In this document: one piece after another, positions 26,165-58,953 of the stretch
Layout: each line of letters starts with the position of its first letter
How positions within the stretch are numbered: the stretch's first letter is position 1
Source of the DNA: Escherichia phage vB_EcoM_JNE01
DNA: 64,000 bases
Sequence record: OR670491
Strand: one strand, 5' to 3'
Made by a program: the position numbers and the translations under genes
The notes under the pieces: model-generated
What the model was told of the DNA's origin: nothing
Database searches by the model: none
Seen by the model: the letters and a program-made list of their open reading frames with translations, nothing else

Positions 26165-26542
26165 ATGATGCCTACTCCATCGAACAGTACTGAATATCAG
26201 AATAATGTTCTCCACAAGATAAAGGAGATACATGAGTCAGACGCAGCTATAACAGACCGTATGCTTCTGATGTCAATTTTTGAAAATTTCAGAACTGGCG
26301 GTGGATTGAGATTGAGTAAGTACGGATTTAAATTGTGTGAAGAAAATAAACTTTACGAATTTACAAAAATCCCCTTGCGAAAAGATTTCAAAAGCTCTAT
26401 AATGTTTACATCGCTTGACAGGATATGTGCTGAACCTTACTATGTTGACGGTCAGTACATATACCTCGCAGACATAATGATTGTTACTGAGTTGACATTA
26501 TGCTGCGATGACTTTAAAATGTTATTCTCGAATCATCAGTGA
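26165..26542 (+). CDS. hypothetical protein
   Basis: 125-aa ORF. Confidence 0.45.
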   Translation: MMPTPSNSTEYQNNVLHKIKEIHESDAAITDRMLLMSIFENFRTGGGLRLSKYGFKLCEENKLYEFTKIPLRKDFKSSIMFTSLDRICAEPYYVDGQYIYLADIMIVTELTLCCDDFKMLFSNHQ

Positions 26543-26566
26543 TTCGAAAATAAAGAAAAAAAGTTC

Positions 26567-26594
26567 TTGACAAGTTAAAATGATGTGATATAAT
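26567..26594 (+). promoter_or_regulatory. sigma70 promoter P1 (TTGACA, 16-nt spacer, TGaTATAAT) with A-tract upstream and TGATG/CATCA inverted repeat across the -10
   Basis: Consensus hexamers read directly. Confidence 0.55.
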
Positions 26595-26658
26595 GAGCAT
26601 CACGAAGTAAGTTTTCAAAATCACATGATGTGAGATTGAAAAAAAAGAAAAAAAGTTG

Positions 26659-26686
26659 TTGACAAGGTTGAACGATGTGATATAAT
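26659..26686 (+). promoter_or_regulatory. sigma70 promoter P2 (TTGACA, 16-nt spacer, TGaTATAAT) with GTTGAAC/GTTCAAC inverted repeat flanking the -10
   Basis: Near-duplicate of P1 about 90 bp downstream. Confidence 0.55.
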
Positions 26687-26750
26687 GTTCAACATCAAGA
26701 CGACGAAGTGATTGACCTTTTTAAACACACGGATGATTCATGAAGTAACA

Positions 26751-26798
26751 AAGGAACTGATAAGTTAAAAATACTTTTAACACAGTTCCTTTACTTTT
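26751..26798 (+). terminator. leader stem-loop / possible attenuator (AAGGAACTG/CAGTTCCTT with nested GTTAAAA/TTTTAAC)
   Basis: 9-bp outer stem, U-rich 3' side, between P1/P2 and the proximal promoter. Confidence 0.4.
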
Positions 26799-26808
26799 GC
26801 CATCGGAT

Positions 26809-26817
26809 TGGTATAAT
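26809..26817 (+). promoter_or_regulatory. proximal extended -10 promoter (TGgTATAAT)
   Basis: About 40 nt upstream of ATG 26856. Confidence 0.4.
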
Positions 26818-26855
26818 AGAAATCTCAAATTTATCCAACTAAAAGGAAACTATAC

Positions 26856-28187
26856 ATGTCTACTCAAAACGCTGATATCCTGAACGTAAAACTGACTCCT
26901 AAGAAAGCTAAAGCAGCAATGGCACTGGCTGACATGATTCAAGACAGCCTGATGATTTGGGGTAGCCCTGGTATCGGTAAATCTGCAATTGCCCGTCAAT
27001 ACGCTGATGAGAACTACCCACTGCGTAAAGACAATCTGGCTAAGATTGAGTTCATGAAGCAGCAAATTGAAGTTGATGTAGAAAATGCTGACCAACTACG
27101 CCGTGAACTGGCAGCGTTCGAAGCTAAACTGATTGACCAAGACACCAACTTCATCGACTTCCGTTTGTCACAGATTGAACCAAGTGACCTACGTGGTATC
27201 CCAGTACCAGAGAAGATTTTCCTTGATATGGATGGTAAGCAACTGATTGAATCTGAACTGGAAACTGCACAAAACTACATCGCTGAAACAGCAGTAGTAT
27301 GGGCTGCACCAAAAGTACTGAAACTAAGCCCTGAATGGAAAGGTGTTATCCTGTTCGACGAAATTAACTCTGCAATGCCTATCGTGCAAGCAGCTTCTTA
27401 TCAGCTAATCCTCGACCGCTGTGTTGGTGAGATGAAGCTACCTAAGAAAGCTCTGATTCTGGCAGCAGGTAACCGTGAAACTGATGGCGGTGTAACCTTC
27501 TCTCTAGCTACACCACTGCGTGACCGTATGACTCACATCGAGATGGTTCCTTATCATCAAGATTGGATTAACGACTACGCAATTGCGAAACGTCTGAACC
27601 CAGCAACTGTTGCGTTCATCAACAACACTGGTGCTAAGTACTTCAACACCCTTAGCCCACAAGATCCTTCTCACAGTGGTGGTACTTCCCCACGTTCATG
27701 GGAAGCAGTAGCACGCTACGAAGACCTGAAGAAAGGTGGTCAGAGTATCGATAAAGAAGTGTTCCGTGCTCTAGTTGCAGGTCGTGTTGGTGAAGGTGTT
27801 GCTACCGAGTACATCGAATATGTAGAAAACGTATCTAAACTACCAGATACCATGTCTATCCTAAACGGTGAGATTAAAGAGATTGACGCTTCGCTAGATA
27901 TTTCTGCGAACTACTTCATCTCTCTGAACCTGGTCTATAAAATTATCGACCTGTACAATGAGAAGCAAGAACAACGTCTGGATGTGGCTGAATGGGGTAA
28001 ACTGTGCAACAACTTCATCATCTTCCTAGACCATAACTTCTCTGCAACTCAAGCAGAACTGGCAGTACTAGCGATTCGTACCATCACTCAGGCACGTGTA
28101 GCGATTTCGACTAAAGATGTACCAGCGTTCACTGACTTCATCAAGAAGTACACTGACCTAGTACGTAAAGCACGCTCCCTAAGCTAA
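26856..28187 (+). CDS. MoxR-type AAA+ ATPase (CobS/AAA_5-like) with a long insertion between Walker A and B
   Basis: Walker A GSPGIGKS, Walker B ILFDEIN; coiled-coil-like insert of about 120 aa between them. Confidence 0.75.
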   Translation: MSTQNADILNVKLTPKKAKAAMALADMIQDSLMIWGSPGIGKSAIARQYADENYPLRKDNLAKIEFMKQQIEVDVENADQLRRELAAFEAKLIDQDTNFIDFRLSQIEPSDLRGIPVPEKIFLDMDGKQLIESELETAQNYIAETAVVWAAPKVLKLSPEWKGVILFDEINSAMPIVQAASYQLILDRCVGEMKLPKKALILAAGNRETDGGVTFSLATPLRDRMTHIEMVPYHQDWINDYAIAKRLNPATVAFINNTGAKYFNTLSPQDPSHSGGTSPRSWEAVARYEDLKKGGQSIDKEVFRALVAGRVGEGVATEYIEYVENVSKLPDTMSILNGEIKEIDASLDISANYFISLNLVYKIIDLYNEKQEQRLDVAEWGKLCNNFIIFLDHNFSATQAELAVLAIRTITQARVAISTKDVPAFTDFIKKYTDLVRKARSLS

Positions 28188-28210
28188 TAATTCGAAATAG
28201 TGGTTGACAA

Positions 28211-28240
28211 GGAGGATACCAAATGGTATCCTTCTTTTAT
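28211..28240 (+). terminator. intrinsic terminator (GGATACC/GGTATCC)
   Basis: Stem-loop followed by TTCTTTT; a TTGACA hexamer lies just upstream. Confidence 0.55.
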
Positions 28241-28263
28241 CTTAACTAAACGAGGAATTTAAA

Positions 28264-29688
28264 ATGTCTCAAGAACAAAAATTCAAATTCGAAGAAGTTT
28301 CAGCTTCAGTACAGAAAGAGTGCCAAGACCGTCTTATTCTCGCACGTACATCTTTGATGCTTACTAAACCATTCTTTGGTGTACTGGCATCCCGTCTTCG
28401 TCCAGTACCTAACAACACATGGTGTCGTACTCTGGCAGTAGATGGTAAGCACCTTTTTTATAACGTAGAATTCGTAATGGGTATTCAAGACCCACTCAAG
28501 AAAGACGCATATGAAGCAGCAATGCGTGAAGCTCATCCAGAAATTACTGACGAGCAGTTGAAAGAAATGACCGAAGGCTTGACTGACGAAAACCTGATTG
28601 CAGTTATTTGTCATGAAATTCTTCACTGTGCATACGACCACTTCTTGCGTCGTGGTATGCGTGACCCACAACGTTACAACCGTGCTGCTGACTACGCGAT
28701 TAACCAGATTCTGGTTCGTGAAAAGATTGGTAAAATCCAGAATGGTTGGTTGTATGATCCAAAATATGACGGTATGACCGCAGAAGAGATCTACAACATT
28801 CTTCTAGAAGAAGATGAAAAACAAGAACAACAAGAAGGTGAAGGCGAAGGCCAACCACAACAAGGTGGTAGTGGTCAGGGTGAAGGGCGTTCACGTGGTA
28901 CATTTGGTGACCTTGCTGATGGTAAAGGTAAAGGCACTCCAAAAGGTACTACCATTGACCAACATGACGTTCCACAAGATGGTGATGGCGGTCAGTCTGA
29001 AGAGAAGAAACGTGAATATATGGACGATTTCAAAACCGCAATGATGAACGCGGCTCGTGCAGGTGGTACACCAGCAGAAATCGAACGTATGATCAATAAC
29101 TTCAAAGCACCAAAAATTGACTGGCGTGCAAAACTGCAACGTACTTTGCGTAGCTGGTTGAAATCTGACGCTACTTATCAGAACCCAAACCGTCGTTCAT
29201 GGGGTGCAGGTTTTGGTTCTAACGGTTCATTCTACGGGAACCCAATTTTCCCAGGCATGAAACCAGATGATGATATTGATATCGCAATTGCACTAGATGC
29301 ATCCGGTTCTATCTCTGAAGATATGCTCCGTGACTTCATCAGTGAAGTACTGGGTATCACTAAACAATTCAAACAGTTTAAGATTCGTATCATGACATTT
29401 GATACTCAAGTTTATACTGTAATGGATTACAAAACTGGTGAAGAACGTAAGATTCTTGAATATCCAGTTAAAGGTGGTGGCGGTACTGACTTTGAAGCAG
29501 TGTGGGTTCACATGAAACACGACAACTACAAGCCTAAACAACTTGTAATGTTTACAGATGGTGAGCCGTGGCAGTCATGGGGTGATCCTAACTACTGTAA
29601 GACACTGTTCGTTATTCACAGTAATCCAGAGAAAGTCGCACCATTCGGTGAAACCGTACACTACGAGTACGAAAATAAGAAAAAATAA
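28264..29688 (+). CDS. vWA-domain protein with N-terminal HExxH metallopeptidase-like domain (MoxR partner, CobT/DUF2201-like)
   Basis: HEILH motif; Gly-rich linker; MIDAS-type DASGS at the start of the C-terminal vWA fold. Confidence 0.75.
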   Translation: MSQEQKFKFEEVSASVQKECQDRLILARTSLMLTKPFFGVLASRLRPVPNNTWCRTLAVDGKHLFYNVEFVMGIQDPLKKDAYEAAMREAHPEITDEQLKEMTEGLTDENLIAVICHEILHCAYDHFLRRGMRDPQRYNRAADYAINQILVREKIGKIQNGWLYDPKYDGMTAEEIYNILLEEDEKQEQQEGEGEGQPQQGGSGQGEGRSRGTFGDLADGKGKGTPKGTTIDQHDVPQDGDGGQSEEKKREYMDDFKTAMMNAARAGGTPAEIERMINNFKAPKIDWRAKLQRTLRSWLKSDATYQNPNRRSWGAGFGSNGSFYGNPIFPGMKPDDDIDIAIALDASGSISEDMLRDFISEVLGITKQFKQFKIRIMTFDTQVYTVMDYKTGEERKILEYPVKGGGGTDFEAVWVHMKHDNYKPKQLVMFTDGEPWQSWGDPNYCKTLFVIHSNPEKVAPFGETVHYEYENKKK

Positions 29689-29701
29689 GTAAGTAAATAA
29701 A

Positions 29702-29732
29702 AGGGAATGGTGATGAGCCATTCCTTCTTATT
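29702..29732 (+). terminator. intrinsic terminator (GGAATGG/CCATTCC)
   Basis: Stem-loop followed by a T-rich run. Confidence 0.55.
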
Positions 29733-29736
29733 AAAA

Positions 29737-29764
29737 TGGACAATCACTGAAAGCGTGATATAAT
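29737..29764 (+). promoter_or_regulatory. sigma70-like promoter (TGGACA, 16-nt spacer, TGaTATAAT)
   Basis: Same architecture as P1/P2. Confidence 0.45.
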
Positions 29765-29798
29765 TAAAGTTGTAATCAATAACATGGAGAGTTATACA

Positions 29799-30047
29799 AT
29801 GAGTCAAGAAAACCAACAAGAACAAGTTATCCAACTAGACCTAATCGACCTAATCAATGCTGCACGTATTCTAGAAGCTGCTGTTGCTCGTAATACTTTT
29901 ACCGTTGATGAATTGGTTCAAGTCGCACCAGTTGTTTCTAAAGTTGTTTCTTTTGCACAAACTGCACAAGCAGACATTGAAGCTAAAGAAGCAGCACGTC
30001 TTGCTGCTGAAGCTGGTGAAACTAACAACGTTCAAGAAGGGGAATAA
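29799..30047 (+). CDS. hypothetical small protein
   Basis: ATG with GGAGAG SD; ORF track begins at 29784. Confidence 0.4.
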   Translation: MSQENQQEQVIQLDLIDLINAARILEAAVARNTFTVDELVQVAPVVSKVVSFAQTAQADIEAKEAARLAAEAGETNNVQEGE

Positions 30048-30049
30048 TT

Positions 30050-30691
30050 ATGGCTATTCGTCACACTGGTGTAATGCGTAATACAGGTTCACGAGTTTTC
30101 GTTGTATGGCGTGCACTACCAGATGATCCACAACATTGCTTGGTAATTTATCGTGATTCACTTCCAGAAGCATATGTATATGCCGTGACTGATATTGTCA
30201 ACAATCAAGGTCAAAGCTCAATCGACCTATGGGAAGTTATGCACAAGATTGGTTATCTAGATGGACGTAAAATGCTAGATGTTCTACACAATATGCAGTA
30301 CTTACATCGTGTTCGCACTTGTGACATTGATATGCATACTGGTGGTAACAACAAGATTTCTCTTGACGTTCTAAACGCTGCTATCGATGAAGGTAACAAA
30401 GTACACCAAGATAGCAAAGTAAAAGATTTCAATCCATTTGCACCACAAGAAGTTGATACCAGCGTTGAAGATGCTACTATCGTAGGTCAACTACTAGCTG
30501 ATGCTCGTAAACACGAGAAACTAGCTCAAGACTTCTATGAGCGTGCATATAACCTAGAACCTTCACTTCGTACTGAAGTTAAAGTTGAAGCAGTAACTCC
30601 AGGTACATTCACTGTTGAATTCCCTGAAGGTATTTCACAAACTAAAGCAATCGAACGTGTTAAGAAAGCTCTTGCAGAGCGTAAAGCATAA
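30050..30691 (+). CDS. hypothetical protein
   Basis: 213-aa ORF with GAAGGGG SD. Confidence 0.5.
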   Translation: MAIRHTGVMRNTGSRVFVVWRALPDDPQHCLVIYRDSLPEAYVYAVTDIVNNQGQSSIDLWEVMHKIGYLDGRKMLDVLHNMQYLHRVRTCDIDMHTGGNNKISLDVLNAAIDEGNKVHQDSKVKDFNPFAPQEVDTSVEDATIVGQLLADARKHEKLAQDFYERAYNLEPSLRTEVKVEAVTPGTFTVEFPEGISQTKAIERVKKALAERKA

Positions 30692-30696
30692 GTTCT

Positions 30697-31293
30697 ATGA
30701 AAATAACCGAATTAGATGAAGCAATTCGTGGCTTTTCTAATACGTTTTTCAGTGGCGGGGCAGATGGTGCTGACCGCCATTTTACATTATATGCTCTTGA
30801 AAAGGGATTCAATGTAATCAACTTTTCTTTCAGGGGTCATAATCATAGTGTAGATGAAGATACAATATTAGAAATACCTTCTCATATTTTATGTGATAGT
30901 ACAGTACTGAAACAATTAAACATGGCATGTTACTCTTTGCAGCGTAAAGTACCTAAGCCTGGTTCTTACGTATTCAACTTACTAGCACGTAATCGTTATC
31001 AAATTCTAAACACAGAACGAGTTTATTGTATTGCAAAAATCGAATCACCAACTAGAGTTAGTGGCGGTACTGCATGGGCAGTTCAAATGTATATGGATAG
31101 TGTTGACAATCCTGAAATCTATTGTTATGATATGAATTCAAAAAGTGTGTATACATTTGACAATACAAATAAAGAGTTCGTTGAAGTATTCACTATTCCT
31201 GCACCACATGGTAATTGGACAGGAATTGGTTCTCGAAATGCAACTGTTAAGCATTTTGAGCATTTCAAAACATTTTTCAAGGAAGACAAATGA
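30697..31293 (+). CDS. hypothetical protein with DprA/Smf-like (SLOG-type Rossmann) signature
   Basis: FSGGADGADRHFTLYAL and LARNRYQIL ... SGGTAWAVQ resemble the DprA motifs SGxAxGxDxxAH and RNR...SG; recalled only. Confidence 0.35.
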   Translation: MKITELDEAIRGFSNTFFSGGADGADRHFTLYALEKGFNVINFSFRGHNHSVDEDTILEIPSHILCDSTVLKQLNMACYSLQRKVPKPGSYVFNLLARNRYQILNTERVYCIAKIESPTRVSGGTAWAVQMYMDSVDNPEIYCYDMNSKSVYTFDNTNKEFVEVFTIPAPHGNWTGIGSRNATVKHFEHFKTFFKEDK

Positions 31294-32219
31294 AACAACT
31301 ACAAGAGCTATATCAAAAAATTCTAGATGAAGGCGTAGAAAGCGTTGACCGTACTGGTGTTGGTACAATCAAACTAATCGGACAACAAATGCGTTTTGAT
31401 TTGTCGGAAGGTTTTCCAGCAGTGACAACTAAACGTTTAGCTTGGAAAGCAATGACCTCGGAATTGTTATGGTTCATTGAAGGTTCCCATGATGAACGTC
31501 GTCTATGTGAAATTCTACATGGTACTCGTGATTGGGAAAAAGTGACAATCTGGACTGGTAATTACAAAAACCAAGGTGTTAATCTTGGATACACCGATGG
31601 TGAGTTGGGTCCAGTTTATGGCAAACAATGGCGTTGCTGGGAAGATTACAAATTCAGTGCTGTTACCGAAGAAATTCAAGAATTGAAAGACAAAGGATAC
31701 AAAGTACTGGATTATACAGGTTCACATGGTGTTGTTATGAAACGCACCACTGACCAGCTAATGGATCTAATCAATGGTATCAAAGAAGATCCATACGGTC
31801 GTCGTCACATTCTTTCCGCATGGAACGTTGGTGAACTTGACCAAATGACATTACCACCATGTCATAGCTTTGTTCAGTTCTGTGTTGTTCAAGGTAAACT
31901 AAGCTGCATTCTACATCAACGTAGTGCTGATATGTTCTTGGGTGTTCCATTCAATATTAGTAGCTATTCTCTACTAACACATATTATTGCACAAATTACT
32001 GGGTTAGATGTTGGTGAGTTTATTTGGAATGGTGGAGACTGCCACATTTACAAAAACCACGTTGAACAAGTAAAAGAACAACTACTTCGTGAGCCACACG
32101 AACTACCAGAATTATGGTTAGATCCTTCAATTACTTCTATCGAAGATTTGAAAATGAATTCATTCAAACTACTGAATTACAATCCAATGGCAACAATCAA
32201 AGCACCAATGGCTGTATAA
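31290..32219 (+). CDS. thyA: thymidylate synthase (ThyA type)
   Basis: MRFDLSEGFPAVTTKR, ELLWFIEG, active-site PPCH, SADMFLGVPFNI; 309 aa. Confidence 0.9.
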   Translation: MKQLQELYQKILDEGVESVDRTGVGTIKLIGQQMRFDLSEGFPAVTTKRLAWKAMTSELLWFIEGSHDERRLCEILHGTRDWEKVTIWTGNYKNQGVNLGYTDGELGPVYGKQWRCWEDYKFSAVTEEIQELKDKGYKVLDYTGSHGVVMKRTTDQLMDLINGIKEDPYGRRHILSAWNVGELDQMTLPPCHSFVQFCVVQGKLSCILHQRSADMFLGVPFNISSYSLLTHIIAQITGLDVGEFIWNGGDCHIYKNHVEQVKEQLLREPHELPELWLDPSITSIEDLKMNSFKLLNYNPMATIKAPMAV

Positions 32220-56599: not shown

Positions 56600-56627
56600 T
56601 TGACAACAGCAAATAATGTGATATAAT
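56600..56627 (+). promoter_or_regulatory. sigma70 promoter (TTGACA, 16-nt spacer, TGaTATAAT) with ATGTGAT/ATCACAT inverted repeat
   Basis: Same GTGATATAATG core as P1/P2; drives the ClpA-like gene. Confidence 0.5.
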
Positions 56628-56667: not shown

Positions 56668-58953
56668 ATGAACCTGACACAACTATTCAAGAAAAGCGAC
56701 GAACTGGCAACCTCTATGGGTCATACTTTTTTGACAATTGACCATGTGAGTGCTACAGTACTGACAGTTGATAGCATTGTTGACGTATTCAAGTCGATGG
56801 ACATTGACGCTGCAAAGCTTCATGCACGTTTGATTGATTATTTGAAAAACAACCCAGTTCCACCAGCACCAAAAAGTACTTTAGATGATGACTCGAACCG
56901 TACTTCACTTCTAGTGAATCGCGTGATGCAGGAACTGTCTAAAAAAGCAGTGATTGAACAGCTAAATCGTGATGATTTCTCCATTGATGCATATTTTGTT
57001 CTGTTTGAATGTTTGTCCTTCCCAAATACTGCATTCGAAGCAGTACTGAAAGAAGAAGGGGTTTCTTGTACTGAAGTAGCACGTACACTACAGAAACATG
57101 TAGAAGATATTGATACTGGCATCAACCTAAAAAGTATTAGCGACGAACCAACAGGGGACAAAAAAGTGGCTCAACAGCAACCAGCATCTAAGCAGAAAAG
57201 TTTGGAAGATTACACTACCAACCTTACCGCACTAGCGAAGGAAGGTAAACTCGACCCAATGATTGGTCGTCAAAAAGAGCTTGCTTCTCTCGTTGAGACT
57301 CTTGCTCGTAAAACTAAGAAGAACGCAATCCTAACTGGTGAAGCTGGCGTAGGTAAAACTCAAATCGTTGATGGTTTGGCACAAGCAATCGCAAATGGTG
57401 ATGTTCCAGAGCATCTAAAAGATGTGGAACTACTGTCTCTGAACGTTGGTGCACTAACTGCTGGTACAAAATACCGTGGTGAGTTTGAAGAACGCATTGA
57501 CAATCTTCTAAAAGAACTGAAGAAACGCGAAAACACCATCGTCTTCATCGATGAAATCCATATCATGGTTGGTGCTGGTTCTGCGAGCAACGGTTCAATG
57601 GATATGAGCAACATGCTCAAACCTGCTCTATCTCGTGGTGAGATTCGTGTCATCGGTGCAACCACTTATGACGAATATCGTAAAAACATCGAGAAAGACA
57701 GTGCTCTATCACGTCGTTTTATGAAAATTGATGTTGTTGAACCAACAGTTGAAGAAACTCGTGAAATTATCAACGGTCTACAAAAGACTTATGAGAAATT
57801 CCACAATGTAACCTTCACTAAAGGTGCGATGGATGCAGTTATTACACTAAGTGATAAGTTCCTGAAGAACAAACACTTCCCTGACAAAGCAATCGACCTA
57901 ATGGATGCGTCAGCAGCGAAGAAACGTTCTCGTGACAATGGTAATGAAATTACTGTTGGTGATATCCAAGAAGTTGTTGCTGGAATCGCTAACCTAGACC
58001 TGAACGTAGTTGCTTGTACTGAAAGTGAGCGTATGCGTAGTCTTCCTGATGCACTTCGTTCTCGTGTATATGGTCAAGAAGAAGCAGTAACTAAATTGGT
58101 TGATAACGTGATGGTTGCTCGTGCAGGTCTACGTGAATCTTCCAGTGTTCAGGGTGCATTCATGTTTGTTGGACCATCTGGTACTGGTAAAACTGAAATC
58201 ACCAAAGCGTTGGCTGATGCAACTGGTTCTAAACTGATTCGTTTCGATATGTCTGAGTTCTCTCAAGAACACACTGTGTCTAAACTGATTGGTTCACCTC
58301 CAGGTTATGTTGGTCACGATTCTGGTAATGGCCTACTACTAGACCAGATTGAGCAATACCCGAATGCAGTGCTGCTACTTGATGAAATCGAGAAAGCAGA
58401 TCGTAAAGTACTGTTGACTTTCCTTCAAGTTCTTGATGAAGGTCGTCTAACTGGTTCTCAAGGTAAGACTGTTTACTTCAACAACGTAACTGTTGTTATG
58501 ACAACTAACCTTGGTGCAGCAGACTCTACAAAACGTAGTATCGGTATGAGTGGTAGTGATACAGCACAGGATAAAGCGATTAAAGCTTTCCTACCGCCTG
58601 AATTCATCAACCGTATCGACAGTATCGTTACATTCAATGATTTGTCTTCTGATGCAATTCAGAGTATCATTGATAAATTCATGGGTAGTTTGAACGAACA
58701 AGTTAAAGACCGTGGTGTTAAGGTTTCTCTAACTAAAGCGGCTCGTGAATGGTTGGCGAAGAATGGCGTTAAGAACGGAATGGGTGCTCGTCCAATGAAA
58801 CGTACCATTGAACAGAATATCCGTGTTCCTCTGGCGAAAGAAATGCTTTGTGGTTCACTGGTTGATGGCGGTTCAGTAACATTTGATGTTATCAACGGTT
58901 CACTAGGCATTAAGCCAAAGCGTGTTAAAGCAGCAGATAAAGTAGAAGCGTAA
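56668..58953 (+). CDS. clpA: ClpA-like AAA+ unfoldase (N-domain, D1, D2, ClpP-docking loop)
   Basis: D1 GEAGVGKT / VFIDEIH / ALSRRF; D2 GPSGTGKT / LLLDEIEKAD / PPEFINRID; IGM tripeptide where ClpA has IGL; 761 aa. Confidence 0.85.
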   Translation: MNLTQLFKKSDELATSMGHTFLTIDHVSATVLTVDSIVDVFKSMDIDAAKLHARLIDYLKNNPVPPAPKSTLDDDSNRTSLLVNRVMQELSKKAVIEQLNRDDFSIDAYFVLFECLSFPNTAFEAVLKEEGVSCTEVARTLQKHVEDIDTGINLKSISDEPTGDKKVAQQQPASKQKSLEDYTTNLTALAKEGKLDPMIGRQKELASLVETLARKTKKNAILTGEAGVGKTQIVDGLAQAIANGDVPEHLKDVELLSLNVGALTAGTKYRGEFEERIDNLLKELKKRENTIVFIDEIHIMVGAGSASNGSMDMSNMLKPALSRGEIRVIGATTYDEYRKNIEKDSALSRRFMKIDVVEPTVEETREIINGLQKTYEKFHNVTFTKGAMDAVITLSDKFLKNKHFPDKAIDLMDASAAKKRSRDNGNEITVGDIQEVVAGIANLDLNVVACTESERMRSLPDALRSRVYGQEEAVTKLVDNVMVARAGLRESSSVQGAFMFVGPSGTGKTEITKALADATGSKLIRFDMSEFSQEHTVSKLIGSPPGYVGHDSGNGLLLDQIEQYPNAVLLLDEIEKADRKVLLTFLQVLDEGRLTGSQGKTVYFNNVTVVMTTNLGAADSTKRSIGMSGSDTAQDKAIKAFLPPEFINRIDSIVTFNDLSSDAIQSIIDKFMGSLNEQVKDRGVKVSLTKAAREWLAKNGVKNGMGARPMKRTIEQNIRVPLAKEMLCGSLVDGGSVTFDVINGSLGIKPKRVKAADKVEA

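What the first reader, a model, noticed from the sequence alone, without database searches (positions are those of the whole stretch)
26545..29732. MoxR-type ATPase plus vWA/HExxH-metallopeptidase operon behind tandem consensus promoters
A MoxR-type AAA+ ATPase with an unusually long insert between Walker A and B is followed by a protein combining an HExxH domain, a Gly-rich linker and a MIDAS-bearing vWA domain. The pair sits behind two near-identical TTGACA-N16-TGATATAAT promoters with inverted repeats across the -10, a leader hairpin and a third -10, then ends at a terminator. Such ATPase/vWA pairs recur in phages and in predicted conflict systems, but their phage function is unresolved.
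Basis: partly seen in the sequence, partly recalled or inferred. Interest (0 to 1): 0.7.

Follow-up and report, generated by a model that had tools for sequence, protein, structure and literature searches.

The report
Phage MoxR ATPase with vWA–peptidase partner
This is the jumbo-coliphage copy of a very widespread, already described phage gene pair (the N4 gp24/gp25 type: an AAA+ "MoxR" motor plus a partner that fuses a zinc-peptidase-like domain to a vWA docking domain); the sequence features are real and the control region is elaborate, but what the pair does in infection is still unknown.

Summary
The window comes from a 121Q/RaK2-like jumbo coliphage, 99.4% identical to phage Turkey5.
- a 443-aa AAA+ ATPase and a 474-aa DUF2201_N (HExxH) + vWA/MIDAS protein;
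- two perfect sigma-70 promoters with extended -10 and A-tracts, 92 bp apart;
- a leader hairpin, a third -10 and a 3' terminator.

Only the inverted repeats across the -10 boxes do not hold up. One is at chance level and the other is not conserved.

The proteins are orthologues of phage N4 gp24/gp25. Homologues occur in 716 phage records and about 15,000 protein clusters. Iyer et al. (2021) already described the pair for exactly this phage group, so it is not new.

Three points are added here:
- a conserved terminator-like hairpin lies between the two genes, so this is not a simple operon and the ATPase is probably made in excess;
- an 84-nt leader is far more conserved than synonymous sites;
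- a small conserved gene sits directly upstream of the ATPase in several distant phage lineages.

The promoter class and the neighbouring genes point to expression before the late phase. That fits uneasily with the published virion-assembly proposal, although the ATPase was detected in phAPEC6 virion preparations. Function remains inferred.

The parts
26165..26542 (+). Small conserved gene (125 aa, PHROG 15638, no Pfam) directly upstream of the ATPase; candidate third partner
   Evidence: An HMM built from 4 copies finds it upstream of the ATPase, on the same strand, in L013 and in 7 further loci from MAG records (E 1e-7 to 2e-11). L008 and L009 were among the 4 copies the HMM was built from. 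Two look-ups starting from distant homologues (P0440, P0424) both land immediately upstream of an AAA_5 + DUF2201 pair. In Erwinia phage pEa_SNUABM_50 the locus tags are 00207 (small protein) and 00209 (vWA protein), consistent with an adjacent triad.
26546..26594 (+). Promoter P1: A-rich UP-like tract followed by TTGACA-N13-TGATATAAT
   Evidence: 12/12 match with extended -10. It is the first copy of the 62-nt direct repeat. Conserved in 4 other Asteriusvirus phages.
26612..26642 (+). Hairpin between P1 and P2 (15-nt arms)
   Evidence: Inverted repeat I4; -9.8 kcal/mol, z -3.8. Only partly conserved in 121Q and UE-S1.
26638..26686 (+). Promoter P2: A-rich tract followed by TTGACA-N13-TGATATAAT
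   Evidence: 12/12 match with extended -10. 89-93% identical in relatives. This is the only one of the pair present in RaK2 and K64-1.
26720..26803 (+). Conserved leader core with a terminator-like hairpin (26750-26792) followed by a U-rich tract
   Evidence: The hairpin folds at -15.4 kcal/mol, z -3.9. The core is 88-95% identical among Asteriusvirus phages, against about 61% identity at synonymous sites of the flanking genes. RaK2 keeps the stem through a matched deletion on both arms (GGAACTG/CAGTTCC becomes GGACTG/CAGTCC), and TCCTTTACTTTTGC is invariant. No Rfam family matches.
26790..26817 (+). Weak promoter-like site P3 (TTTACT-N16-TATAAT, with TG in this phage)
   Evidence: 10/12 match. 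The -10 is conserved in Asteriusvirus phages and is TATCAT in RaK2.
26856..28187 (+). MoxR-class AAA+ ATPase, orthologue of N4 gp24 (443 aa). Walker A at nt 26961-26984, Walker B at 27357-27362, clade-specific inserts at about nt 27012-27131 and 27204-27293
   Evidence: Sequence, family and structure evidence. dN/dS is 0.10-0.16.
28204..28243 (+). Intergenic terminator-like hairpin (28209-28236, 12 bp, followed by TTTTATCTT) overlapping a promoter-like site, TTGACA-N17-TATCCT with TG
   Evidence: Found; -17.5 kcal/mol, z -4.5. Conserved in phAPEC6, A4, vB_Ec-M-J and RaK2, with a G.U-compatible change in phAPEC6 and A4. Analogous hairpins lie directly after the ATPase gene in L100, L008 and L013.
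28264..29688 (+). DUF2201_N (zincin-like, HExxH) + vWA/MIDAS protein, orthologue of N4 gp25 (474 aa). HEILH at nt 28612-28626, disordered G/E/Q-rich segment at about 28819-28998, MIDAS DASGS at 29296-29310, T408 at 29485-29487, D432 at 29557-29559
   Evidence: Sequence, family and structure evidence. dN/dS is about 0.10.
29704..29732 (+). 3' intrinsic terminator (7-bp stem GGAATGG/CCATTCC followed by TTCTTATT)
   Evidence: -13.9 kcal/mol, z -3.9. Relatives have a hairpin plus T-run at the same place with different stem sequences.

Best explanation
The locus encodes the jumbo-phage version of the N4 gp24/gp25 module. Its parts are a MoxR-class AAA+ ATPase, a partner protein whose C-terminal vWA domain carries an intact MIDAS site and whose N-terminal DUF2201_N domain carries an intact HExxH zincin-like site, and probably a third small protein encoded just upstream.

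**Proposed mechanism (inferred by analogy with RavA-ViaA, NorQ-NorD, CbbQ-CbbO and midasin).**
- The ATPase forms a ring.
- The vWA/MIDAS domain docks an acidic residue of a client protein, or of the ATPase itself.
- ATP hydrolysis remodels the client.
- The fused zinc site cleaves the client.

**Proposed expression (inferred from sequence).**
- Host sigma-70 RNA polymerase starts at two very strong promoters before the late phase.
- A conserved leader terminator acts as an attenuator.
- A second terminator after the ATPase gene keeps the peptidase-adaptor sub-stoichiometric to the motor.

**Most likely role.** Dedicated maturation or processing of one or a few phage-encoded clients (assembly of a large phage complex), rather than an arms-race function.

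**Shown versus inferred.** Shown here: the domain content, motif conservation, gene linkage, purifying selection and conserved regulatory elements. Inferred: ring formation, the interaction between the proteins, proteolysis, timing and the client.
For: **Identity.**
- BLASTP to N4 gp24 gives 3e-27 and to N4 gp25 gives 4e-31.
- Pfam: DUF2201_N 124.8 bits, DUF2201 74 bits. The vWA domain alone scores 26.2 against a cut-off of 23.8.

**Catalytic competence.** HExxH, the MIDAS residues, Walker A and B, sensor 1 and the candidate arginine finger R224 are invariant. dN/dS is 0.10-0.16.

**Obligate pairing.**
- 72 of 80 genome loci have the ATPase within 2.7 kb upstream, 71 of them on the same strand.
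- The same order is seen in phage contigs.

**Conserved, non-arms-race character.**
- The vWFA protein is one of the 14 core genes of N4-like phages (PMC10783043).
- Homologues are in 716 phage records and 14,908 protein clusters.

**Regulation.**
- The promoters are perfect sigma-70 matches with A-tracts and are conserved.
- In the related phage CBB, RpoD-like promoters with UP elements mark the presumed early genes, while structural genes have a T4-late-like motif (PMC5259590).
- The leader and the inter-gene hairpins are conserved.
- A terminator directly after the ATPase gene recurs in three further lineages.
- In E. coli, RavA is about 350 and ViaA about 90 molecules per cell (PMC3893208 abstract).

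**Link to virions.** The phAPEC6 orthologue gp265c was detected in virion preparations with 6 peptides and 19% coverage (PMC7247149). Iyer et al. proposed virion assembly plus proteolytic processing (PMC7824862).
Against: - No experiment on any member of this phage family was found.
- Promoter class and neighbouring genes fit an early or middle function better than late virion assembly: thymidylate synthase downstream here, dCTP deaminase and gp30 (a putative thymidylate synthase) in N4, FEN exonuclease, glutaredoxin and ClpP elsewhere.
- The same phAPEC6 virion list also contains thymidylate synthase and a PhoH-like protein, so the ATPase may be carry-over. The vWA protein gp264c is not listed.
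- Transcription start sites, termination and timing are untested.
Confidence: 0.55

Rival explanations
1. The pair is a metal-cofactor insertion or enzyme-maturation chaperone for a phage DNA/nucleotide-metabolism enzyme. It would work like NorQ-NorD (iron into NO reductase), CoxD-CoxE, CbbQ-CbbO or the chelatases. On this reading the HExxH site would bind or deliver metal, or remove a pro-peptide from the client.
For: - The gene order is conserved between unrelated phage types: gp24, gp25, dCTP deaminase and then gp30 (a putative thymidylate synthase) in N4, and ATPase, vWA, three ORFs, a SLOG/DprA-like gene, then thymidylate synthase here and in RaK2.
- In other large phages the pair sits beside a 5'-3' exonuclease and a glutaredoxin.
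- In N4 it lies in the middle (replication) gene block.
- The promoters are of the early type.
- One chromosomal copy lies next to a Ni-SOD gene.
- Several characterised MoxR-vWA pairs, such as NorQ-NorD, mature metalloenzymes (abstracts of PMC9976466 and PMC13036017).
Against: - The catalytic glutamate of HExxH is invariant, which points to hydrolysis rather than metal hand-over.
- No specific client gene is consistently adjacent.
- Neighbouring genes in phages are weak evidence of function.
- The ATPase was detected in virion preparations.
Confidence: 0.2
2. The pair is a host-takeover or counter-defence protease. Made early, the MoxR-vWA pair would capture a host protein, such as an immunity or proteostasis factor, and the zincin domain would destroy it. 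This would mirror the use of MoxR-vWA in bacterial conflict systems.
For: - The promoters are early-type, very strong sigma-70 promoters.
- The same promoter type drives a ClpA/B-like Hsp100 gene in this window.
- A ClpP gene lies near the pair in other phages.
- In the rV5-like phage EdH4 the genes lie among small early-type ORFs near rIIA.
- MoxR-vWA couples are central to predicted conflict systems (PMC7159879).
Against: - There is no PADLOC hit and no VMAP/iSTAND-type third component.
- The pair has core-gene status in N4-like phages, low dN/dS and very broad conservation, including non-prophage chromosomal copies. This is unlike typical patchy, fast-evolving counter-defence genes.
Confidence: 0.12
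3. The tandem promoters mainly produce a short non-coding leader RNA that ends at the leader hairpin, about 105 nt from P2 and about 200 nt from P1. On this reading the ATPase gene is read chiefly from the weak P3 or by regulated read-through.
For: - The hairpin with its U-rich tail lies between P2 and the ORF.
- The leader core is 88-95% conserved against about 61% at synonymous sites.
- The stem is kept in RaK2 by a matched deletion on both arms.
- A promoter-like site follows the hairpin.
- The 313-nt gap is unusually long for this tightly packed genome.
- Highly expressed ncRNAs exist in the related phage PA5oct.
Against: - No Rfam match reaches any family's threshold.
- No other copy of the leader exists in the window.
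- The U-tract is interrupted (UUUACUUUUG).
- Leader attenuators before protein genes are common and do not imply a trans-acting RNA.
- There are no transcript data.
Confidence: 0.1

Closest known systems
Phage N4 gp24 (AAA ATPase) / gp25 (vWFA protein), core genes of N4-like phages (Schitoviridae)
   Same: - Direct sequence homology of both proteins (E 3e-27 and 4e-31).
- Same gene order.
- Same two-domain partner, DUF2201_N + DUF2201.
- A thymidylate-synthase-type gene lies a few genes downstream.
- Function is unknown in both.
   Different: - The jumbo-phage proteins carry clade-specific inserts: two in the ATPase and one of about 32 aa in the peptidase domain.
- N4 lacks the small upstream gene, by HMM search of the N4 locus.
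- N4 has no terminator-like hairpin in the gp24-gp25 gap by the simple scan.
- The N4 genes lie in the middle gene block, and N4 middle genes are transcribed by N4 RNAP II rather than from sigma-70 consensus promoters.
MoxR-vWA pair with N-terminal metallopeptidase in 'group 2.2' jumbo phages (Iyer, Anantharaman, Krishnan, Burroughs, Aravind 2021, PMC7824862)
   Same: This is the same gene pair in the same phage group (121Q/RaK2-like). The domain assignment is identical.
   Different: - That paper proposes a virion-assembly and processing role by analogy with the Acidianus virus.
- It does not, in the passages read, describe the promoters, the two attenuator hairpins, the inserts or the upstream small gene.
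Acidianus two-tailed virus p618 (MoxR) / ORF892 (vWA)
   Same: It is a virus-encoded MoxR + vWA pair. The vWA region of ORF892 is a Foldseek match at E 1.6e-5. It is cited as required for tail development.
   Different: - The ATV vWA protein has no peptidase domain.
- It is an archaeal virus.
- Only fold-level similarity to the vWA part was seen here.
Cellular MoxR-vWA chaperone pairs (RavA-ViaA, NorQ-NorD, CbbQ-CbbO, CoxD-CoxE, midasin)
   Same: - The pairing is an AAA+ motor of the MoxR/dynein/midasin clade with a MIDAS-bearing vWA adaptor.
- The family profile hits midasin.
   Different: - None of those adaptors carries the DUF2201_N HExxH domain.
- Their clients are known; the client here is unknown.
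- The window ATPase is too divergent to pass the AAA_3 or AAA_5 cut-offs itself.
vWA-MoxR-VMAP / iSTAND ternary conflict systems (Kaur et al. 2020, PMC7159879)
   Same: A MoxR-vWA couple forms the core, and peptidase domains are occasionally fused to the vWA component.
   Different: - No VMAP, iSTAND, FtsH or beta-propeller third component is present.
- There is no bpMoxR or PADLOC match.
- The candidate third gene here is a small protein with no known domain.

Membership tests
MoxR-class AAA+ ATPase (Pfam AAA_3/AAA_5; MoxR/dynein/midasin clade) | AAA+ core motifs: Walker A, Walker B, sensor-1 Asn and an arginine in the (P)L.DR(F/M) box | tested here: met
   G36, G39, K42, S43, D168, E169, N206 and R224 are invariant in 21 homologues. 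The segment NRETDGGVTFSLATPLRDRM resembles the MoxR NP.E.EG.Y.LP.A.LDRF box; that consensus is recalled from memory, not tested.
MoxR-class AAA+ ATPase (Pfam AAA_3/AAA_5; MoxR/dynein/midasin clade) | Score above the curated cut-off of AAA_3 (PF07726) or AAA_5 (PF07728) | tested here: not met
   The window protein scores 18.9 for AAA_3 against a cut-off of 27 and has no AAA_5 hit; only generic AAA passes, 22.4 against 21.2. Homologues related to it at E about 1e-50 do carry AAA_3/AAA_5. Chromosomal homologues pass the cut-offs: AAA_5 34.7 and 30.0 against 22, and AAA_3 28.4 against 27.
MoxR-class AAA+ ATPase (Pfam AAA_3/AAA_5; MoxR/dynein/midasin clade) | Fold or profile closest to MoxR, dynein and midasin rather than other AAA+ clades | tested here: inconclusive
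MoxR-class AAA+ ATPase (Pfam AAA_3/AAA_5; MoxR/dynein/midasin clade) | Genetic linkage to a vWA/MIDAS partner | tested here: met
   The vWA gene is adjacent here. 72 of 80 independent loci have the ATPase within 2.7 kb upstream of the vWA gene.
MoxR-class AAA+ ATPase (Pfam AAA_3/AAA_5; MoxR/dynein/midasin clade) | Hexameric ring with ATPase activity | not testable with these tools
   Needs purified protein.
vWA domain with MIDAS | Alpha/beta vWA fold | tested here: met
vWA domain with MIDAS | MIDAS residues DxSxS ... T ... D | tested here: met
   D345, S347, S349, T408 and D432 are invariant in 24 sequences down to about 37% BLASTP identity.
DUF2201_N putative zincin-like metallopeptidase (PF13203) | Family profile match | tested here: met
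   124.8 bits against a cut-off of 23.2.
DUF2201_N putative zincin-like metallopeptidase (PF13203) | HExxH with an invariant catalytic Glu, plus a third metal ligand | tested here: inconclusive
   H117, E118 and H121 are invariant. Candidate third ligands H126 and D143 are also invariant, but which one binds metal cannot be decided without coordinates or experiment.
DUF2201_N putative zincin-like metallopeptidase (PF13203) | Zincin fold confirmed against solved peptidases | tested here: inconclusive
   - The model's order of elements is backing helices, a three-stranded sheet, an HExxH helix (108-128), then a helix with N139, D143 and N147. This fits a minimal zincin.
- Only sub-threshold sequence hits were found: Peptidase_M48 at E 0.031, PhageMetallopep at E 0.012 and the uncharacterised protein MJ1213 at E 0.8.
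DUF2201_N putative zincin-like metallopeptidase (PF13203) | Peptidase activity | not testable with these tools
   No biochemical study of any DUF2201_N protein was found: 4 papers mention the name, none functional.
N4 gp24/gp25-type phage pair | Both proteins homologous to N4 gp24 and gp25, same order and strand | tested here: met
   The RaK2, K64-1 and phAPEC6 records also note the similarity.
vWA-MoxR ternary conflict systems (VMAP / iSTAND / FtsH / beta-propeller) | A third defining component next to the pair, or a match to defence-system models | tested here: not met
   Pfam scans of the neighbouring genes show no such domains. There is no PADLOC hit for either protein.
HNH endonuclease (label of PHROG 1314 and many GenBank records) | HNH nuclease domain | tested here: not met
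   No HNH family appears in the Pfam scan. The label traces to a similarity note in the RaK2 record.

The most novel reading that the evidence does not exclude
The unit may really be a three-gene cassette: a small domainless protein, a MoxR ATPase and a vWA-zincin. Its stoichiometry would be hard-wired by two conserved attenuators, and the zincin would be a gated, client-specific protease that is essential for development of several major phage groups (N4-like, rV5-like, RaK2-like and PA5oct-like). The small upstream protein would be its adaptor, regulator or first substrate. That would define a new phage-wide ATP-gated protease system, distinct from prohead proteases and from Clp/Lon.
Probability: 0.15. 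Interest if true: 0.6.

Novelty: already known. Interest (0 to 1): 0.3.

Why it matters
The pair is one of the most widely conserved phage gene pairs that still has no known function. The vWFA protein is a core gene of all N4-like phages. Homologues are found in 716 phage records and about 15,000 protein clusters, and the partner protein is widely mislabelled 'HNH endonuclease'.

Assigning a function would improve annotation of thousands of genomes. It would also show what an ATP-driven motor coupled to a zinc-peptidase adaptor does during infection. The question can be tested directly in phage N4 with E. coli.

The points added here give concrete handles for experiments: early-type promoters, two conserved attenuators, a conserved upstream small gene and clade-specific inserts. 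They also cast some doubt on the only published proposal, late virion assembly. As a finding in this window, however, it is a known pair in a known phage group.

Tried and rejected
1. **Defence or conflict-system membership.** PADLOC and NCBIfam gave nothing, and no third-component domains appear in the neighbours. Rejected.
2. **'HNH endonuclease' (PHROG/GenBank label).** No HNH domain is present and the label is inherited from a similarity note. Rejected.
3. **Operator-like inverted repeats over the -10 boxes.** A shuffle test and comparison with relatives show chance level at P1, and a repeat at P2 that is not conserved. Rejected as a supported feature.
4. **A known RNA family in the leader.** Rfam at E up to 5 returned only sub-threshold chance hits.
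5. **A second copy of the leader elsewhere in the window.** Only the -10 motif recurs.
6. **A conserved leader peptide.** An 11-codon mini-ORF is visible in this phage, but by eye it is cut to 3 codons in A4 and RaK2 in the alignment. Rejected.
7. **A T4-type late promoter (TATAAATA) upstream of the ATPase.** The motif is absent from the whole window. A possible CTAAATA...TATATA late motif was seen by eye before tail genes, but CTAAATA is not enriched. Left open.
9. **Sequence search of PDB with single proteins.** Nothing useful was found.
10. **Essentiality data.** The CRISPRi-ART paper (PMC11879866) was checked for N4 and EdH4 orthologues; they are not mentioned in the main text.
11. **Temporal class from PA5oct RNA-seq.** The text is too coarse to classify the orthologue.
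12. **RaK2 paper.** No mention of the ATPase or of promoters.

Full report
**Source and setting.** The window is from an Asteriusvirus-type (121Q/PBECO4/RaK2-like) jumbo coliphage. Region 26400-29900 is 99.4% identical to Escherichia phage Turkey5 and about 84-86% identical to 121Q, PBECO4, phAPEC6 and others. The locus lies at the junction between a tail and virion-protein block (tail sheath, tube proteins and 'virion structural protein' PHROGs upstream) and a small block ending in thymidylate synthase.

**Check of the observation: proteins.**
- The two ORFs lie at 26856-28187 (443 aa) and 28264-29688 (474 aa).
- The first protein has Walker A GSPGIGKS and Walker B DE. In an alignment of 21 homologues the Walker residues, N206 (sensor 1), R224 and a C-terminal P-R-x-W motif are invariant.
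- Relative to 370-400-aa homologues and to N4 gp24, it has two extra segments between Walker A and Walker B, not one.
- In the AlphaFold model (pLDDT 82, pTM 0.75) these appear as a helical hairpin at aa 57-91 and two long strands at aa 115-124 and 141-150, read here as a lengthened beta-hairpin.
- The second protein matches DUF2201_N (6.6e-36) and DUF2201/VWA.
- HExxH (H117, E118, H121), H126, D143 and the MIDAS residues D345, S347, S349, T408 and D432 are invariant across 24 homologues, down to about 37% BLASTP identity.
- The G/E/Q-rich stretch (about aa 186-245) is disordered in the model. It sits inside the Pfam DUF2201_N envelope rather than between that domain and the vWA domain.
- The jumbo-phage clade also has an insert of about 32 aa in the peptidase-like domain.
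- Both genes are under strong purifying selection, with dN/dS 0.10-0.16 against phAPEC6, A4 and RaK2.

**Check of the observation: control region.**
- Two 12/12 sigma-70 promoters with TG-extended -10 boxes lie at 26567-26594 and 26659-26686. Each is preceded by an A-tract, and both lie within a 62-nt direct repeat.
- The exact motif is TTGACA-N13-TGATATAAT.
- Perfect TTGACA-N15-18-TATAAT sites number 5 in 64 kb against 0.15 expected.
- Both promoters are retained in vB_Ec-M-J, 121Q, A4 and UE-S1. RaK2 and K64-1 have a single copy.
- The leader hairpin (26750-26792; -15.4 kcal/mol, z -3.9) is followed by a U-rich tract.
- The surrounding 84-nt leader core is 88-95% identical among Asteriusvirus phages, while synonymous sites of the flanking genes are only about 61% identical.
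- RaK2 keeps the stem by a matched deletion on both arms.
- A weaker promoter-like site (TTTACT-N16-TATAAT, 26790-26817) follows the hairpin.
- The 3' terminator (29704-29724) is present. In relatives it is replaced by different hairpin-plus-T-run sequences at the same position.
- The one element that does not stand is the inverted repeats across the -10. The 5-bp repeat at P1 is matched in 765 of 2000 shuffles. The 7-bp repeat at P2 is matched in 44 of 2000 shuffles but is not conserved.

- Between the two genes lies a 12-bp hairpin followed by TTTTATCTT (28209-28236; -17.5 kcal/mol, z -4.5). It overlaps a promoter-like TTGACA-N17-TATCCT site with TG.
- It is conserved in phAPEC6, A4, vB_Ec-M-J and RaK2, with a G.U-compatible substitution in two of them.
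- Terminator-like hairpins directly after the ATPase gene also occur in a PA5oct-like phage (L013) and in two distant large-phage contigs (L008, L100) whose ATPases belong to the roughly 30%-identical short subfamily.
- None was found in the N4 gp24-gp25 gap.
- The pair is therefore not a simple operon. The ATPase is probably made in excess of the adaptor-peptidase, as reported for RavA and ViaA (about 350 against about 90 molecules per cell; PMC3893208 abstract).

**What the proteins are.**
- The RaK2, K64-1 and phAPEC6 records already call these genes N4 gp24-like and gp25-like.
- BLASTP confirms this: 3e-27 and 4e-31.
- N4 gp24 and gp25 lie in the N4 middle-gene block, followed by dCTP deaminase and gp30, which PMC2784036 lists as a putative thymidylate synthase.
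- The vWFA protein is listed among the 14 core genes of N4-like phages, and the function of both is given as unknown.
- tblastn finds the vWA-peptidase protein in 716 phage records: RaK2-like, PA5oct-like, Atu_ph07, rV5-like and N4-like.
- An exhaustive search finds 14,908 cluster representatives at E up to 1e-3.
- BFVD shows the same two-domain architecture in N4-like phages, cyanophage S-TIM5, PBS1 and a crAss-like virus.
- In 80 loci from bacterial and archaeal genome records, 72 have the ATPase homologue upstream, 71 of them on the same strand. Most of the rest are cut by contig ends.
- Some copies are plainly chromosomal and not in prophages: Chitinimonas, and a Desulfobulbaceae copy next to Ni-SOD. 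In those copies the ATPase passes the AAA_5 and AAA_3 cut-offs.
- The window ATPase is too divergent to pass those cut-offs itself.
- The zincin fold of the N-terminal domain rests on three things: the Pfam family; a zincin-like order of secondary-structure elements in the model; and sub-threshold hits around HExxH. I could not test it with a domain-only structure search.

**Prior description.** Iyer et al. [quoted passage not shown] By analogy with the Acidianus two-tailed virus, they propose a role in virion assembly with proteolytic processing. The finding is therefore already known as a kind, and known in this phage group.

**A possible third partner.**
- The 125-aa gene just upstream (26165-26542; PHROG 15638, no Pfam) is weakly but consistently similar to the gene immediately upstream of the ATPase in distant phage contigs.
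- An HMM built from four copies finds further copies upstream of the ATPase, on the same strand, in eight more loci.
- Two look-ups starting from distant small-protein homologues both land next to an AAA_5 + DUF2201 pair.
- It is absent from the N4 and EdH4 loci by this test.
- Its role is unknown.

**Timing and role.**
- In the related phage CBB, RpoD-like promoters with UP elements mark the presumed early region. A divergent class precedes DNA-synthesis genes, and a T4-late-like motif precedes structural genes (PMC5259590).
- PA5oct depends on host RNA polymerase.
- The promoters here belong to the first class. One more perfect extended -10 promoter of the same type in the window (56600-56627) drives a ClpA/B-like Hsp100 gene.
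- Neighbours of the pair elsewhere are FEN exonuclease, glutaredoxin, ClpP, a Macro-domain protein and rIIA.
- This favours expression before the late phase.
- On the other side, the phAPEC6 orthologue of the ATPase was detected in virion preparations (6 peptides, 19% coverage). Thymidylate synthase and a PhoH-like protein were detected too, and the vWA protein was not.
- Core-gene status, low dN/dS and the breadth of the family argue against an arms-race function.

**Conclusion.** The locus is the already described N4 gp24/gp25-type MoxR + vWA-zincin module. I commit to a mechanism in which a motor, a MIDAS adaptor and a fused peptidase act on one or a few, probably phage-encoded, clients from the middle of infection. 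Rivals are cofactor insertion or enzyme maturation for nucleotide-metabolism enzymes, host takeover, and a leader RNA as the main promoter product. None of the functional steps has been tested experimentally. The decisive experiments are straightforward in phage N4.

Noticed in passing
window 56600-56627 and 56668-58953 (+): A third perfect extended -10 promoter of the same type (TTGACA-N13-TGTGATATAAT) drives a 761-aa two-ring ClpA/ClpB-like Hsp100 ATPase (AAA_2, ClpB_D2-small, AAA_lid_9), set among minus-strand structural genes. The strongest sigma-70 promoters in this part of the genome therefore serve two AAA+ chaperone units.
   Followed up: partly
window 26165-26542 (+): A small domainless gene is conserved directly upstream of the ATPase in several distant phage lineages. 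No CDS is annotated for it in the phAPEC6 record, where the ORF lies at L011 3760-4140.
   Followed up: partly
whole window: The T4 late-promoter octamer TATAAATA is completely absent (0 against 6.5 +/- 2.5 expected). By eye, tail genes are preceded by CTAAATA...TATATA-like strings, but CTAAATA alone is not enriched.
   Followed up: partly
window 28264-29688; PHROG 1314; many GenBank records: The vWA-peptidase protein is widely annotated 'HNH endonuclease', and sometimes 'anti-sigma factor' or 'DNA repair ATPase'. No HNH domain is present. The label appears to stem from a similarity note in the RaK2 record.
   Followed up: yes
window 29737-29764 and 29784-32219 (+): Right after the terminator, a near-consensus promoter (TGGACA-N13-TGATATAAT, conserved in relatives) heads a block of an 87-aa ORF, a 213-aa ORF, a SLOG/YspA- or DprA-like protein (30697-31293) and thymidylate synthase (31290-32219). 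N4 has a comparable run from gp25 to gp30, a putative thymidylate synthase.
   Followed up: partly
L030 4260-7218 (Desulfobulbaceae chromosome): A chromosomal copy of the ATPase + DUF2201 pair lies directly downstream of a nickel superoxide dismutase gene. That enzyme needs N-terminal processing and metal insertion (from my own knowledge). The adjacency may be coincidence.
   Followed up: no
phAPEC6 virion mass-spectrometry table (PMC7247149): The virion-associated list includes thymidylate synthase (gp259c), a PhoH-like protein and the MoxR ATPase (gp265c). Either non-structural proteins carry over into the preparations or they are packaged.
   Followed up: no
window 14300-14349 (+): A terminator hairpin is followed at once by a TG-extended -10 (GTGGTGATATAATG) without a clear -35, upstream of the gene starting at 14374. 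This is another terminator-promoter junction like those around the MoxR locus.
   Followed up: no
window aa 232-234 of the 474-aa protein (nt about 28957-28965): An invariant D-x-H motif (D232, H234) lies in the middle of the otherwise variable, disordered acidic/glycine-rich segment. It could be a self-cleavage or autoinhibition site, or a metal ligand.
   Followed up: no
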